This document shows positions 1 through 22,025 of a stretch of DNA of 25,746 bases, one piece after another. The notes beneath the pieces were generated by a model. That model was not told where the DNA came from. It saw only the letters and a program-made list of their open reading frames with translations, and ran no database searches. The stretch comes from Bacillota bacterium (lineage in GTDB: Bacteria; Vulcanimicrobiota; JAJTBE01), in contig JAJTBE010000006.1 in the NCBI GenBank assembly GCA_021287065.1, positions 1 through 25,746 of the forward strand, read 5' to 3'. Every line of letters begins with the position of its first letter. The stretch's first letter is position 1. The position numbers were made by a program, and so were the translations under genes.

Positions 1-273
1 CGGGGGACCGTGGGGGTTGGGGACCGTCAGAGGGAACCACGCTTTTTTAAAAAAGCGAGGTTGCCCTCCGAACCTCCCTCCTTGAAAAACAAGAGTATTG
101 GGCTGGAAATTGGAGTAAGTTTTACTAATTCAGTGGCATTGGGATTTGGGGACCCTCAGAGGGACCCACGCTTTTTTAAAAAAGCGAGGTTGCCCTCCGA
201 ACCTCCTTCCTTGAAAAACAGAACTCCTGGGCTGGGGGATTTGAGTGGATTTTTACTAATTCAGCGGCATTGA
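1..273. repeat. Two tandem copies (~14-133 and ~138-270) of a ~115-bp repeat module ('module A'). Each carries the perfect 18-nt palindrome cgcttttttaaaaaagcg (40-57; 169-186) flanked by 'ggggaccgtcagagggaacc' and 'gaggttgccctccgaacctccctcc'. The element is probably truncated by the window edge.
   Basis: Direct self-similarity inside 1-273 and to 13891-14010 (rc), 20905-20990 (rc) and 21826-22020. The ORF 10..273 (GTG start, no RBS) is a translation artefact of the repeat. Confidence 0.8.
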
Positions 274-471
274 GACGGACCCTGCCGGTCCTCGTCGAAG
301 CTGGAAGCCTCTCCTGCGATCCCTTGCTAAGCTTTTTGTTGTGCGGGATATTAGGTTGCTTAACAGCAGTAGCAGGCGATGTTGTTGTATCGAGCCGGAA
401 ATAAATTTACCGGGTTCAGCAGAGACTCAAACCGATTTAACTTCCTATGGTTGAAATAGTTTGTCTTTTTT

Positions 472-1839
472 TTGAAAAATCTGATAGAATTAGTATTGTA
501 TTCAGCAACAGTTTTTGAAAGTGAGCAGGTTATGTATCAGTATAAGGATTTTTTCAGAGGAACAGTTGAGGAAATTGAGCAGCGGCAGAATGGCCGTATA
601 AGGGAGATGGTGGAATATGCATACCACAATTCTTTCTTTTACAGGGAAATGATGGATATTGCAGAGGTGAAGCCTCAGGATGTGCAGACTGCCGGAGATT
701 TGAAAAAACTGCCCATAACAAGAAAAGATGATCTCCGGGAGTATAATGACAGATTTTTTGCGGCTCCCCGTTCTCGCTGGCTTGATATTGCCAGTACATC
801 GGGATCTACCGGTGCCCCTGTTTATATTCCGTTTACCCTGAAGGATATGGAAAGGATTTCTCTTTACGGAGCGCAGACTCTCAGCCTTTCCGGGCTTTCC
901 GGGGAGGATACGGTTCATCTTACCCTGCCAATGAGCGCCTGGCTCTGGATGGCAGGTTTCGGATTTTATTTCTGTTTTACAACTCTTGGAACCGGCGTTA
1001 CCCGCTTTGGTCCGGGGTTTTCCGAAAAATCCATAAGAATCATTCAGGAAACCTCTTCAACCGCCCTGATGGCTGCGCCGTCGTTTGCGCTCAAGCTGGG
1101 CAGGGAGATTAAGAGAAAAGGGATTTCCCACAGTATTAAACGCATCTTTATTGTTGGCGAAAATGTCCTTGACAGGGATTTAAAGAAAAACGGTCTGGGC
1201 AGGATGATTGAAGAAGCCTGGAATGCCGAGCTTTTCTCCTGTTACGGCGCTACGGAAGGTTGTTTTGTTACTGTGGAATGCAGCGCTCATAACGGACATC
1301 ATATCAACCCTGATGAGGTTTTCTTTGAGATTCTTGATCCTGATACTCTCGAACCTGTGGAAGACGGAAAAGAGGGGCTTGTTGCTATTACCCCCCTCGG
1401 CGTTGAGGGCATGCCTCTTCTCAGATACATGAACGGAGACAGATCCTATCTGATTCCCGGACCCTGCCCCTGCGGCAATATGCATAAAAGATTAGGCCCA
1501 ATACTTGCCCGGAATGATCACATGGTTAAAATCAAAGGTGTAATGGTATATCCTGACGCTGTAAAAAATGTGCTTTCTGAGAATGGAATTGTGATGATGC
1601 AGGTTGAGGTGGTTGAAAAGGATTTTGCCAATCATCTTATTGTATATATCCCTGCAAAACCGGGGGATAATACGGCATTTGAAGCTTTTATACAGGAGCA
1701 GATCCGGAGAAAACTGGGTGTCACTCTTGAGGTAAGAGCTATTGAGGAAGACGAACTTAATCACAGAATTATGCCGGAAGCTACCCGCAAGCCGGTGGTA
1801 TTTGTTGATAACAGACCAAAAAATAACGACAGGAATTAA
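472..1839 (+). CDS. Phenylacetate-CoA ligase / coenzyme F390 synthetase family adenylate-forming enzyme. The track start 472 is TTG; the more likely start is ATG 532 (MYQYKDFF...).
   Basis: Length and motif order are typical of the PaaK family: 'TSGSTGAPVY' AMP-binding P-loop-like motif, 'YGATE' and a C-terminal 'VKIKGVMVYP' region. There is no shadow-ORF competition. Confidence 0.8.
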   Translation: MKNLIELVLYSATVFESEQVMYQYKDFFRGTVEEIEQRQNGRIREMVEYAYHNSFFYREMMDIAEVKPQDVQTAGDLKKLPITRKDDLREYNDRFFAAPRSRWLDIASTSGSTGAPVYIPFTLKDMERISLYGAQTLSLSGLSGEDTVHLTLPMSAWLWMAGFGFYFCFTTLGTGVTRFGPGFSEKSIRIIQETSSTALMAAPSFALKLGREIKRKGISHSIKRIFIVGENVLDRDLKKNGLGRMIEEAWNAELFSCYGATEGCFVTVECSAHNGHHINPDEVFFEILDPDTLEPVEDGKEGLVAITPLGVEGMPLLRYMNGDRSYLIPGPCPCGNMHKRLGPILARNDHMVKIKGVMVYPDAVKNVLSENGIVMMQVEVVEKDFANHLIVYIPAKPGDNTAFEAFIQEQIRRKLGVTLEVRAIEEDELNHRIMPEATRKPVVFVDNRPKNNDRN

Positions 1840-1889
1840 ACTTCCGTCATAGAAAAAAAATCTGCAATTTAATTATCAGGGGTGGCAAA

Positions 1890-21085: not shown

Positions 21086-21124
21086 CGTGCGGTTATAATT
21101 TTTGTGAGTGATCAGATAAATTCC

Positions 21125-21635
21125 ACCTTAATTCGCAGGCGTCCCCGCCTGCACCCGGTCCCAAAACCCACCTCCAACCGCCAGCAACCATTATAACCAC
21201 AACCCCCCGCCAGCGACTGCCGGATCGCAGGCGTCCCGCCTGTCCCCCGGTCCCAAATCCAACCGCCAACCGCCAGCAAACCCCAATAACCACAAGCTTC
21301 GCCAGCGTTCGTAGGAGGAGGGCTTTATAAAATCGATGCGGATCCGCAGGTCTGCCCGCAATGCAAACTCAAACCACAAATCATTCACATGTGCGGAAAT
21401 CATATTGATAGCCTAAAATTACCATAATTTGATTTAGATTGAAGACTGGTTTGATTTCGGGTCGGATCATTGGTGCCAACCCTACAGCTGGAGTTATTTT
21501 TCCATTTCGGAGATTGTAGAGAGCATGCGAGGTTGTTTAACCGGTGGGACAGGCGAGACGCCTGCGATCCGGCAGTATTGGCGTTTTGTTGTCATTATAA
21601 GGTTTGCAGGTGGTTTGAGTCTGGTTGAGAACGAA
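21125..21635. repeat. A second, GC-rich and C-rich repeat family. It has tandem direct repeats R1 (~21131-21201) and R2 (~21222-21294, 'gatcgcaggcgtccc(c)gcctg..cccggtcccaaa..caaccgccagcaa..ataaccacaa'), a partial R3 (~21340-21388), and a diverged inverted copy (~21545-21630, 'gggacaggcgagacgcctgcgatccggcag' = rc of the R2 start). These flank an AT-richer ~150-bp core (21390-21540).
   Basis: Direct and inverted sequence matches seen by eye. There is no RBS-supported ORF, and the overlapping 60-75-aa ORFs are low-complexity artefacts. Confidence 0.6.
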
Positions 21636-21664
21636 TACATTTAAACCGCTCCCACTACCCATAG

Positions 21665-22025
21665 ATTAATGCATGAATTTACCTGATCGATCACGAGAAT
21701 TGTAACCGTATGCCCAGCTCCCGGAGAAAACTTTTTTGAAAAAAGTTTCCTCCGGACCTCCATCCCAAAACTTTGGAATTGGGGGACCGACCGGAGGGAT
21801 TTAGACCGACCGGGGAATGGGGACCGTCAGAGGGAACCACGCTTTTTTAAAAAAGCGAGGTTGCCCTCCGAACCTCCCTCCTTGAAAAACAAGAGTATTA
21901 GGTTAGGGGTTGGAGGAAATTTTACTAATTCAGTGGCATTGGGGTTAAGGGACCCTCAGAGGAACCCACGCTTTTTTGGAAAAGCGAGGTTCCCTCCGAA
22001 CCTCCTTCTTCAAACCGGTTTAAAT
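21665..22025. repeat. Most complete + orientation copy of the composite element. Order: leader 'attaatgcatgaattt...tgcccagctcccggag' (21665-21722); module B palindrome ggagaaaacttttttgaaaaaagtttcctcc (21723-21753); 'gggaccgaccgg' repeats; module A1 (palindrome 21840-21857); module A2 (degenerate palindrome cgcttttttggaaaagcg 21969-21986).
   Basis: Identity to 1-273 (A1+A2) and reverse-complement identity to 13891-14165. The ORF 21861..22109 is a translation artefact. Confidence 0.8.

What the first reader, a model, noticed from the sequence alone, without database searches (positions are those of the whole stretch)
1..22025. Modular palindrome-bearing repeat family (modules A/B) inserted at four or more intergenic sites
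Four loci (1-273, 13891-14165, 20665-21085, 21665-22025) carry near-identical composite elements of up to ~350 bp. The elements are built from the following parts:
- a leader;
- module B with the perfect inverted repeat 'ggaggaaactttttt / aaaaaagtttcctcc';
- clusters of 'ggtcccc/ggggacc' direct repeats;
- one or two copies of module A with the perfect palindrome 'cgcttttttaaaaaagcg'.
Copies occur in both orientations, as tandem A-A duplications and as truncated pieces. This is a high density for 26 kb and resembles REP/BIME, Correia/NEMIS or RUP-type miniature elements. The palindromes look like the genuine terminator after pmbA ('cgcctttttgcaaaaagcggcg-TTTTTT'), so the copies may double as bidirectional terminators or insulators between operons. 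Every copy sits between transcription units.
Basis: seen in the sequence. Interest (0 to 1): 0.55.

Follow-up and report, generated by a model that had tools for sequence, protein, structure and literature searches.

The report
Modular MITE family with IS4-like ends
The repeats are real copies of a small non-coding mobile element (a MITE) that has multiplied between genes in an uncultured bacterium; its ends and flanking duplication look like those of IS4-type insertion sequences, so it is an ordinary kind of genomic parasite and not a set of terminators.

Summary
The window is a whole 25.7-kb MAG contig. It carries six 'A' units, four 'B' units and one 'C' unit of one repeat family, at three intergenic regions plus the contig start. 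Copies are 83-94% identical and occur in both orientations.

The basic unit is a 278-bp composite, best seen in c2 (13887-14164). Its order is left end, leader, hairpin B, GGGGACC cluster, hairpin A, tail, right end. The two ends are 16-nt imperfect inverted repeats (CAATGCCcaTGAATTA / CAATGCCacTGAATTA). They fit the published end consensus of the IS4 subgroup of the IS4 family (-AATR--------WTW----). The left end matches E. coli IS4's right end at 15 of 19 positions. c2 is flanked by a perfect 10-bp direct repeat (GGATTTAGAC), within the subgroup's 10-13 bp range.

More copies lie on at least two other contigs of the same MAG, and a diverged copy is in an unrelated metagenome. Two assemblies break inside the copies.

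The long hairpins have no downstream U-tract, and c2 sits between divergent gene starts, so the terminator idea is not supported.

Verdict: a new, lineage-restricted family of a known kind, a modular MITE probably moved in trans by an IS4-type transposase that was not found here.

The parts
1..272 (+). Copy c1: the right-hand part of a composite, cut by the contig start. It holds a GGGGACC cluster, unit A1 and unit A2. Hairpin A is at 30-68 and 159-197. There is an internal right-end repeat at 126-141 and a terminal right end at 257-272.
13877..13886 (.). Flanking direct repeat GGATTTAGAC, left copy, flush with the c2 terminus. Candidate 10-bp target-site duplication.
13887..14164 (-). Copy c2: the only complete, isolated element (278 bp). 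Right end is at 13887-13902 (TAATGTCACTGAATTA), hairpin A at 13960-13998, GGGGACC cluster at 14003-14036, hairpin B at 14062-14096. The leader and left end are at 14149-14164 (CAATGCCCATGAATTA on the - strand).
14165..14174 (.). Flanking direct repeat GGATTTAGAC, right copy, flush with the c2 terminus.
20654..20867 (+). Module C (20654-20740, degenerate hairpin AGCTTTTTTTAAAAAGCG with a TIR-like head AAATGATGCACTGAA), then a degenerate leader and hairpin B (c5, about 20772-20867). It is truncated where c3 abuts it.
20868..21134 (-). Copy c3: B+A composite. Right end is at 20868-20883, hairpin A at 20941-20979 (TTTTCCAAAAAA variant), hairpin B at 21044-21077. The outer 11 nt of its left end are replaced by a GC hairpin of a second repeat family.
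21653..22012 (+). Copy c4: leader with a degenerate left end (CACTACCCATAGATTA, 21653-21668), hairpin B at 21721-21755, an expanded GGGGACC cluster that includes an internal GGATTTAGAC (21797-21806), unit A1 (hairpin at 21830-21868, internal right end at 21926-21941) and a truncated unit A2 (hairpin at 21959-21996, no right end).

Best explanation

The mobile unit is a non-coding composite of about 280 bp. Its order is left terminal repeat, leader, hairpin B, GGGGACC cluster, hairpin A, tail, right terminal repeat. Its termini are of the IS4-subgroup type, so it is most likely cut and pasted in trans by an IS4-family DDE transposase encoded elsewhere in the genome. That transposase would make staggered cuts about one helical turn apart and leave a 10-bp target duplication.

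Longer and shorter forms (B-A1-A2, A-A, C-B-A, leader-B only) arise in three ways: insertion of one copy into or next to another, use of alternative inner or outer right ends, and later truncation.

Shown here: the family, its anatomy, its inverted termini, one flush 10-bp direct repeat, dispersal to other contigs and to another metagenome, and hairpins kept through compensatory changes.

Inferred: transposition itself, the identity of the transposase, the nested-insertion origin of the tandems, and any effect on neighbouring genes.
For: 1. Family and anatomy.
2. Termini. The left end CAATGCCCATGAATTA and the reverse complement of the right end CAATGCCACTGAATTA agree at 14 of 16 positions. All six intact termini match AATR-N8-WTW at the outermost, inward-facing position.
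3. IS4 link. The end consensus and the 10-13 bp direct repeat are the published hallmarks of the IS4 subgroup (PMC2266710 Table 1). The loosely conserved first base fits the C/T difference between the two c2 ends.
4. Among about 51,000 19-mers of the window, the single best match to the real E. coli IS4 ends (read from NC_000913.3) is exactly the c2 terminus, at 15 of 19.
5. c2 is flanked by a perfect 10-bp direct repeat flush with both termini.
6. Dispersal. Two spurious 'proteins' from other contigs of the same MAG are translations of the element (P0121 is A-A; P0122 is C-B-A followed by a new left end). A copy 73-81% identical lies on an unrelated JGI metagenome contig, upstream of a different gene (L008).
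7. Assembly breaks. The NCBI contig starts inside a copy. Three Logan contigs of the same run end at window 13923, 20937 and 21917, all inside copies.
8. It does not code. The frames of B differ between copies, and stop codons occur in c2 and c3.
9. c1 and c4 share the same A1-A2 subtype pattern across the junction (91% over 183 nt), so the tandem spread as a unit.
Against: - Only one copy (c2) has both intact ends and clean flanks, so the target duplication rests on n=1.
- The same 10-mer also occurs inside c4 and resembles the element's own GGGATTTGGGG motif. It could therefore be element sequence, or a preferred target, and not a simple duplication.
- The flanks of c4 give only an 8-of-9 direct match, which is not flush with its left end.
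- The degenerate end consensus is common by chance (65 hits against 51 expected).
- The right ends match IS4 only 12 of 19 ungapped.
- IS4 was picked from memory because of the repeat length, so some choice bias remains.
- No transposase of any kind is in the window. The cognate IS could not be looked for, because the rest of the MAG was not retrievable.
- The IS next to tldD in a relative has unrelated ends.
Confidence: 0.6

Rival explanations
1. It is a MITE, but its partner transposase belongs to a different DDE family that makes 8-10 bp duplications. On this view the resemblance to IS4 ends is coincidental.
For: The end consensus is degenerate and frequent by chance. The right ends match IS4 only 12 of 19 ungapped. 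The duplication length comes from one copy.
Against: The 15-of-19 match is anchored at the tip and is the best in the whole window. Both independent ends fit the subgroup consensus at position 1. A duplication of 10 bp is in the 10-13 range given for the IS4 subgroup, and other listed subgroups of the IS4 family begin CAT, CA, CT or CW.
Confidence: 0.2
2. It is a REP/BIME-like or IS200/IS605-derived palindromic element. A Y1 (RAYT/TnpA) transposase would recognise hairpins A and B on single-stranded DNA and spread them.
For: Two similar imperfect hairpins lie in direct orientation, with conserved bulges or mismatches. The arrangement is a mosaic in clusters, as in BIMEs. A second family of GC-rich short hairpins abuts some copies.
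Against: Terminal inverted repeats and a flush 10-bp direct repeat are present, which Y1 elements do not make. Orientations are mixed within 26 kb. No Y1 transposase domain was reported for any of the 20 large ORFs scanned. There is no GTAG-type foot next to the hairpins (read directly).
Confidence: 0.07
3. The modules are primarily functional RNA or DNA signals that the genome has recruited at many intergenic sites. They could be bidirectional terminators or insulators, mRNA-stabilising hairpins, or anti-Shine-Dalgarno regulators. Mobility would be secondary or absent.
For: The hairpins are stable (z from -3.2 to -6.9). One base pair in hairpin A and one in hairpin B change on both sides between the window and L008 and stay paired, and the A·C mismatch in hairpin B is also kept. 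The motif CCTCCGRACCTCC follows each hairpin. A small alternative hairpin followed by T6 exists on the antisense strand of A.
Against: No U-tract follows the long hairpins. c2 lies between divergent gene starts. The T6-bearing orientation does not face an incoming gene at c1, c2 or c4, and the one copy that does (c3) has lost the T6. There is no Rfam match. Three relatives at 75-79% TldD identity have no copy in 63 kb. That is unexpected for a conserved regulator.
Confidence: 0.08
4. The copies arose by local segmental duplication or recombination within this region, without transposition.
For: Three of the loci lie within 8 kb of each other. c3 and c4 form a large inverted pair around a 550-bp core.
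Against: Copies have sharp homology boundaries and unrelated flanks. They also occur on at least two other contigs and in another metagenome, next to different genes. Assemblers break at them.
Confidence: 0.03

Closest known systems
IS4 (E. coli K-12 insG element) and the IS4 subgroup of the IS4 family (De Palmenaer et al. 2008, PMC2266710)
   Same: The ends fit -AATR--------WTW----. The c2 left end matches IS4's right end at 15 of 19 positions (TAATGCCGATCAGTTAAGG). The flanking direct repeat is 10 bp, against 10-13 bp for the subgroup and 12 bp for the K-12 copy. The first base is loosely conserved. There are hints of target preference.
   Different: There is no transposase gene. The element is 278 bp, against 1400-1650 bp. 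The interior is unrelated. Membership of the IS family cannot be claimed for a non-coding derivative without the parent IS.
BrickBuilt MITE of Porphyromonas gingivalis (PMC4596501)
   Same: It is modular (leader, variable number of internal repeats, tail with small inverted ends). It is always intergenic. It has full, partial and truncated forms. Hypothetical proteins have been annotated spuriously inside it. Its TIRs resemble those of resident ISs.
   Different: There is no sequence similarity. The BrickBuilt core is a 23-nt minisatellite, whereas here the variable module is a 129-nt hairpin-bearing unit. The closest named TIR listed beside BrickBuilt's is IS5-family (ISNme1), not IS4-like, and its duplications are short and variable.
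MIC231 / IS231-derived mobile insertion cassettes of Bacillus cereus (cited in PMC2266710; otherwise from my own knowledge)
   Same: They are non-autonomous derivatives carrying IS4-family ends and are mobilised in trans.
   Different: They belong to a different subgroup (ends begin CAT). MICs usually carry passenger genes. There is no similarity to the modules here.
Correia/NEMIS (Neisseria), RUP and BOX (Streptococcus pneumoniae); from my own knowledge
   Same: They are small, multicopy, intergenic and hairpin-forming. BOX is modular (boxA, a variable number of boxB, boxC), much like leader, B and a variable number of A here.
   Different: There is no sequence relationship. Correia and RUP make TA duplications, which implies a different transposase family. 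No promoter or IHF-site features were demonstrated here.
REP/BIME elements with RAYT transposases; from my own knowledge
   Same: Both are mosaic clusters of palindromic units in extragenic DNA.
   Different: REPs are 20-40 nt, lack TIRs and target duplications, and are recognised through a conserved tetranucleotide by a Y1 enzyme. None of these features fits here.

Membership tests
MITE (non-autonomous DDE-type element) | Small (50-1000 bp) and without a transposase gene | tested here: met
   c2 is 278 bp. The six-frame translation shows no consistent ORF: B is in different frames between copies, and c2 and c3 contain stops.
MITE (non-autonomous DDE-type element) | Terminal inverted repeats | tested here: met
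   The 16-nt ends agree at 14 of 16 positions between the left-end and right-end consensus. Within c2 alone they agree at 12 of 15.
MITE (non-autonomous DDE-type element) | Target-site duplication flanking the ends | tested here: inconclusive
   There is a perfect 10-bp repeat flush with both ends of c2. It is the only evaluable copy. The 10-mer also occurs inside c4, and the c4 flanks are ambiguous.
MITE (non-autonomous DDE-type element) | Multiple dispersed copies with unrelated flanks | tested here: met
   There are three intergenic regions plus the contig start in the window, at least 2 other contigs of the MAG, and 1 other metagenome contig.
MITE (non-autonomous DDE-type element) | A cognate autonomous IS with matching ends in the same genome | not testable with these tools
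   The rest of the MAG could not be fetched. The genome-collection scan was lost to a chance coding motif.
IS4 family, IS4 subgroup (ends only) | End consensus -AATR--------WTW---- | tested here: met
   All six intact termini match at position 1 (consensus from PMC2266710). The pattern alone is weak: 65 hits against 51 expected.
IS4 family, IS4 subgroup (ends only) | Direct repeats of 10-13 bp | tested here: inconclusive
   c2 has 10 bp, but n=1. P0122 implies two elements separated by exactly 10 nt, inferred from the protein sequence only.
IS4 family, IS4 subgroup (ends only) | DDE transposase with a Y(2)R(3)E(6)K motif | not testable with these tools
   No transposase domain was found in any of the 20 large ORFs of the window. 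One is expected in trans for a MITE.
REP/BIME with RAYT | Palindromic units of 20-40 nt without TIRs or target duplication, and an associated Y1 transposase | tested here: not met
   TIRs and a flush 10-bp repeat are present. No Y1 transposase domain was reported for any of the 20 ORFs scanned. This could be tested in the window only.
Intrinsic (Rho-independent) terminator | A GC-rich stem immediately followed by a U-tract, at the 3' end of a transcription unit | tested here: not met
   The long hairpins A and B have no 3' T-run. c2 lies between divergent gene starts. Only a 6-bp alternative hairpin with T6 exists, on the antisense strand, and it does not face incoming genes.
Any Rfam RNA family | Score at or above the family's gathering threshold | tested here: not met
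   There were 0 hits at gathering score. Permissive scans gave only miRNA-hairpin noise of 17-22 bits against thresholds of 60-92.

The most novel reading that the evidence does not exclude
The hairpin modules could be more than passive cargo. Both hairpins, their internal mismatches and the following CCUCCGRACCUCC (anti-Shine-Dalgarno-like) tract are kept between two diverged lineages through compensatory changes. The MITE could therefore be a vehicle that distributes a structured regulatory RNA or DNA module upstream of genes. Examples would be a translational or attenuation switch that uses the alternative small-hairpin+U6 fold against the long-hairpin fold.
Probability: 0.1. Interest if true: 0.5.

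Novelty: new member of a known kind. Interest (0 to 1): 0.27.

Why it matters
**Practical.** The family fragments assemblies of this uncultured lineage, since every Logan contig end examined lies in a copy. It has also produced spurious 'hypothetical proteins' in GenBank (MCE1246668.1 and MCE1245870.1). Masking it would improve binning and annotation.

**Biological.** It records a burst of an IS4-type non-autonomous element in a little-known lineage whose closest named relatives are Vulcanimicrobiota. Its modular, nested growth illustrates how mosaics of the BIME/BOX/BrickBuilt type can arise from a simple MITE. It does not open a new mechanism.

Tried and rejected
- **Genome-collection scan** with ACGCTTTTTTNNAAAAGCGAGG. 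The only scan of that collection was lost.
- **Two metagenome scans and one viral scan** (an exact A-core pattern, then back-translated patterns from the translated element). They found nothing.
- **Six-frame concatenated 'protein' query**. It returned nothing, not even the known hits, probably swamped by FFKK words. The last protein search was lost.
- **DNA of the two other MAG contigs** was not on record.
- **Relatives' tldD loci** L005-L007 (63 kb) have no copy by blastn or nhmmer.
- **The DDE_Tnp_1 IS next to tldD in L005** has unrelated ends.
- **Plasmid and phage collections** gave no match.
- **Rfam** gave nothing.
- **Terminator role** was rejected.
- **Coding potential** of the open frame was rejected.
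- **c4 flanks as a clean target duplication** were rejected as ambiguous.
- **Literature search for the run accession** gave no paper.
- **Integron attC, CRISPR and retron readings** were considered and dropped, because spacing, orientation and neighbouring genes do not fit.
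Full report
**1. Observation**

Repeat detection finds long direct and inverted matches among 1-275, 13888-14167, 20868-21123 and 21650-22005, at 83-94% identity. A multiple alignment puts them in one register. 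nhmmer profiles of the two main modules recover exactly six A units and four B units in the window, and none in coding sequence.

The signature strings are far above chance. CGCTTTTTTAAAAAAGCG with up to 2 mismatches occurs 7 times against 0 expected. GGGGACC occurs 10 times, all inside elements, against 2.6 expected.

Small corrections apply. The A palindrome is perfect in 4 of 6 units. The B inverted repeat has one mismatch in every copy. The piece at 20665-20740 is a third recurring module, C.

**2. Anatomy**

Oriented as in c4, the composite reads in this order:
- left end and leader (CAATGCCCATGAATTAAGGCAT...CTGATCGATCAC...GCCCAGCT);
- hairpin B (CCGGAG-A-AAACTTTTTT g AAAAAAGTTT-C-CTCCGG), followed by ACCTCCATCCC;
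- a cluster of GGGGACC(G) motifs;
- hairpin A (GAGGGAACC-A-CGCTTTTTT AAAAAAGCG-A-GGTT-G-CCCTC), followed by CGAACCTCCCTCCTTGAAAAAC;
- a tail of about 45 nt ending ...TTTTACTAATTCAGTGGCATTG.

A, B and C share a core: a CTTTTTT/AAAAAAG palindrome followed by CCTCCGRACCTCC. The B profile detects A units at E about 1e-4. The modules are therefore diverged duplicates of one hairpin unit.

The forms seen are:
- B-A (c2, c3);
- B-A1-A2 with A2 truncated (c4);
- ...A1-A2 (c1, cut by the contig start);
- C-leader-B (c5).

The second unit of both tandems carries the same subtype substitutions, and c1 and c4 are 91% identical across the junction. The tandem therefore spread as a unit.

**3. Context**

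Pfam places all copies between genes:
- c1 is upstream of an AMP-binding enzyme gene.
- c2 is between the start of an epimerase gene on the minus strand (13714) and the start of a plus-strand gene (14341). This is a divergent promoter region.
- C/c5, c3 and c4 fill the 1.65-kb spacer between a radical-SAM/SPASM gene and tldD.

No transposase domain was found in any of the 20 large ORFs. There are no tRNA genes and no Rfam families.

**4. Source and distribution**

The window is a whole 25,746-bp contig of an NCBI MAG labelled 'Firmicutes/Bacillota bacterium', with locus tags LWY06. Its nearest named TldD relatives are Vulcanimicrobiota/Eremiobacterota (taxonomy).

One reading frame of the element is open, so its translation was used as a search handle. 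Among 5.8 billion proteins, only two ORFs matched. Both are from other contigs of the same MAG:
- P0121 is an A-A tandem at a contig edge.
- P0122 is C-B-A followed by the start of another left end.

An exhaustive HMMER search of 1.84 billion representatives added one more, P0123. Its DNA (L008, a 4.2-kb JGI contig that also ends at the element) carries a B-A composite 73-81% identical to the window copies. It lacks the GGGGACC cluster and lies upstream of an SHMT gene.

Three relatives with 75-79% identical TldD have no copy in 63 kb. Plasmid, phage, viral and JGI-metagenome searches found nothing else.

The independent Logan assembly of run SRR17235527 is identical to the window but broken at 13923, 20937 and 21917. 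All three points are inside copies. The family is thus multicopy and dispersed, but lineage-restricted.

**5. Ends, flanks and the IS4 link**

c2 is the only copy with both ends and clean flanks.
- **Termini.** The two termini of c2 are inverted repeats: CAATGCCCATGAATTA and, for the reverse complement of the other end, TAATGTCACTGAATTA. The right ends of the other copies read CAATGCCACTGAATTA, which agrees with the left end at 14 of 16 positions.
- **Flanking repeat.** Flush against both termini lies a perfect 10-bp direct repeat, GGATTTAGAC, at 13877-13886 and 14165-14174.

A duplication of about one helical turn suggested the IS4 family. I read the real IS4 from E. coli K-12. Its ends are TAATGCCAGTCAGTTAAGC and TAATGCCGATCAGTTAAGG, and its duplication is 12 bp. 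The c2 left end matches IS4's right end at 15 of 19 positions, anchored at the tip. In a scan of all 19-mers of the window on both strands, that position is the single best match.

The published hallmarks of the IS4 subgroup are ends -AATR--------WTW----, a loosely conserved first base, direct repeats of 10-13 bp, and marked target specificity in some members (PMC2266710). All six intact termini fit the consensus at the outermost position.

Caveats:
- The consensus alone is weak (65 hits against 51 expected).
- The duplication is n=1.
- The same 10-mer occurs once inside c4 and resembles the element's own GGGATTTGGGG motif.
- c4 shows only an 8-of-9 direct match that is not flush with its left end. 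Its flanks do rebuild a 28-nt palindrome.

**6. How the modular forms could arise (inference)**

Each element contains GGGATTTGGGG just upstream of hairpin A. In A-A tandems the first tail is followed by exactly this 10-mer and then by ACCGTCAG..., the interior of an element. In P0122 the tail is followed by 10 nt (AGATTTGGNG) and then a new left end (inferred from the protein sequence).

This is the pattern expected if elements insert into a preferred GGATTTRGRS-like target, including the copy of it inside resident elements. The resulting composites would later be mobilised from their outer ends.

**7. Hairpins and the terminator idea**

Both hairpins dominate the predicted folds on either strand. 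Between the window and L008, one pair in hairpin A changes G-C to A-U. One pair in hairpin B changes C-G to T-A, and the A·C mismatch in hairpin B is kept. The MAFFT register for B is shifted by one column, so its counts are not usable. This is modest evidence that the hairpins are under constraint. It does not tell whether the constraint acts for the element or for the host.

They are not canonical terminators, for these reasons:
- The T-run is inside the stem, and nothing T-rich follows it.
- The scanner reports only a 6-bp alternative hairpin plus T6 on the antisense strand of A. That orientation does not face an incoming gene at c1, c2 or c4, and c3 has lost the T6.
- c2 lies between divergent gene starts.
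- The true terminator after pmbA has T-runs on both sides and lies between convergent genes.

**8. Comparison and verdict**

In kind, this is a modular bacterial MITE. The nearest conceptual parallel is BrickBuilt of P. gingivalis, which has a leader, variable internal repeats and a tail, is always intergenic, and contains spurious ORF calls (PMC4596501). BOX and BIME mosaics are looser analogues, from my own knowledge.

Its ends point to the IS4 subgroup as the source of the transposase, as MIC231 does for IS231 (cited in PMC2266710).

The family itself matches nothing in Rfam, the plasmid and phage collections, or the metagenome scans. It is therefore a new family of a known kind. Interest is low to moderate.

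Noticed in passing
window 16624-19113 (+), with 15803-16594 and 19404-20615: An 829-aa protein has a major-vault-protein shoulder domain, a Vault_3 repeat and a Band_7/SPFH region. It is flanked by a 263-aa protein with no Pfam hit and by a radical-SAM/SPASM enzyme. A bacterial MVP-like gene in this lineage may deserve its own look.
   Followed up: no
window 21124-21310 and 21546-21576; L008 214-236 and 355-377: A second repeat family. Two tandem units of about 92 nt (84% identical) each begin with a GC hairpin GCAGGCG-N3-4-CGCCTGC followed by a C/A-rich tail containing GGTCCCAAA. An inverted copy of the hairpin (31 nt, 97% complementary) lies 300 nt away. One such hairpin replaces the outer left end of c3. 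Similar GC hairpins follow the element in L008, and CGCAGGTCTGCCC is shared. It may be REP-like.
   Followed up: partly
window 10-273, 20625-20999, 21861-22109; GenBank MCE1246668.1 and MCE1245870.1: One frame stays open through the whole composite (...GDRQREPRFFKKARLPSEPPSLKNKSI...FTNSVALG). Gene callers have therefore annotated 'hypothetical proteins' that are only translations of the repeat. The frame of module B is not conserved between copies, so this is not coding sequence.
   Followed up: yes
whole window (source MAG): The NCBI label is 'Firmicutes/Bacillota bacterium'. The closest TldD homologues with names are Vulcanimicrobiota (74%) and Eremiobacteraeota (57%). There is also a 76% match on a 7.6-Mb ENA contig. 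The phylum label is probably wrong or outdated.
   Followed up: partly
window 24976-24994: A classical bidirectional terminator-like hairpin (CGCCTTTTTGCAAAAAGCG) lies between the convergent pmbA and a minus-strand gene, with T-runs on both strands. Its stem is superficially like hairpin A, but it is not a family member (nhmmer E=7).
   Followed up: yes
window 25746 (contig end): The NCBI contig and the Logan contig L004 both stop at exactly the same base, although no A/B/C module is there. Another repeat probably lies just beyond.
   Followed up: no
window 21634-21648 and 22016-22030: The sequences flanking c4 are inverted repeats of each other (13 of 15). Together they rebuild a palindrome, AATACATTTAAACCGGTTTAAATAAATT, as if the element had landed in the centre of a hairpin-forming site.
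   Followed up: partly
module A, e.g. window 58-85 and 21858-21885: The tract CCCTCCGAACCTCCCTCCTTGA downstream of hairpin A resembles the anti-Shine-Dalgarno end of 16S rRNA (from my own knowledge). Its complement is a strong AAGGAGGGAGG Shine-Dalgarno-like run with no start codon at the right distance. Whether it affects translation of neighbouring genes is unknown.
   Followed up: no
window 7016-8005, 12031-12690, 8023-8809, 1890-3419: The gene content is unusual for a free-living bacterium: two ankyrin-repeat proteins, an EncFtn-like protein next to Fur, and an ATP-grasp/citrate-binding (ATP-citrate-lyase-like) protein.
   Followed up: no
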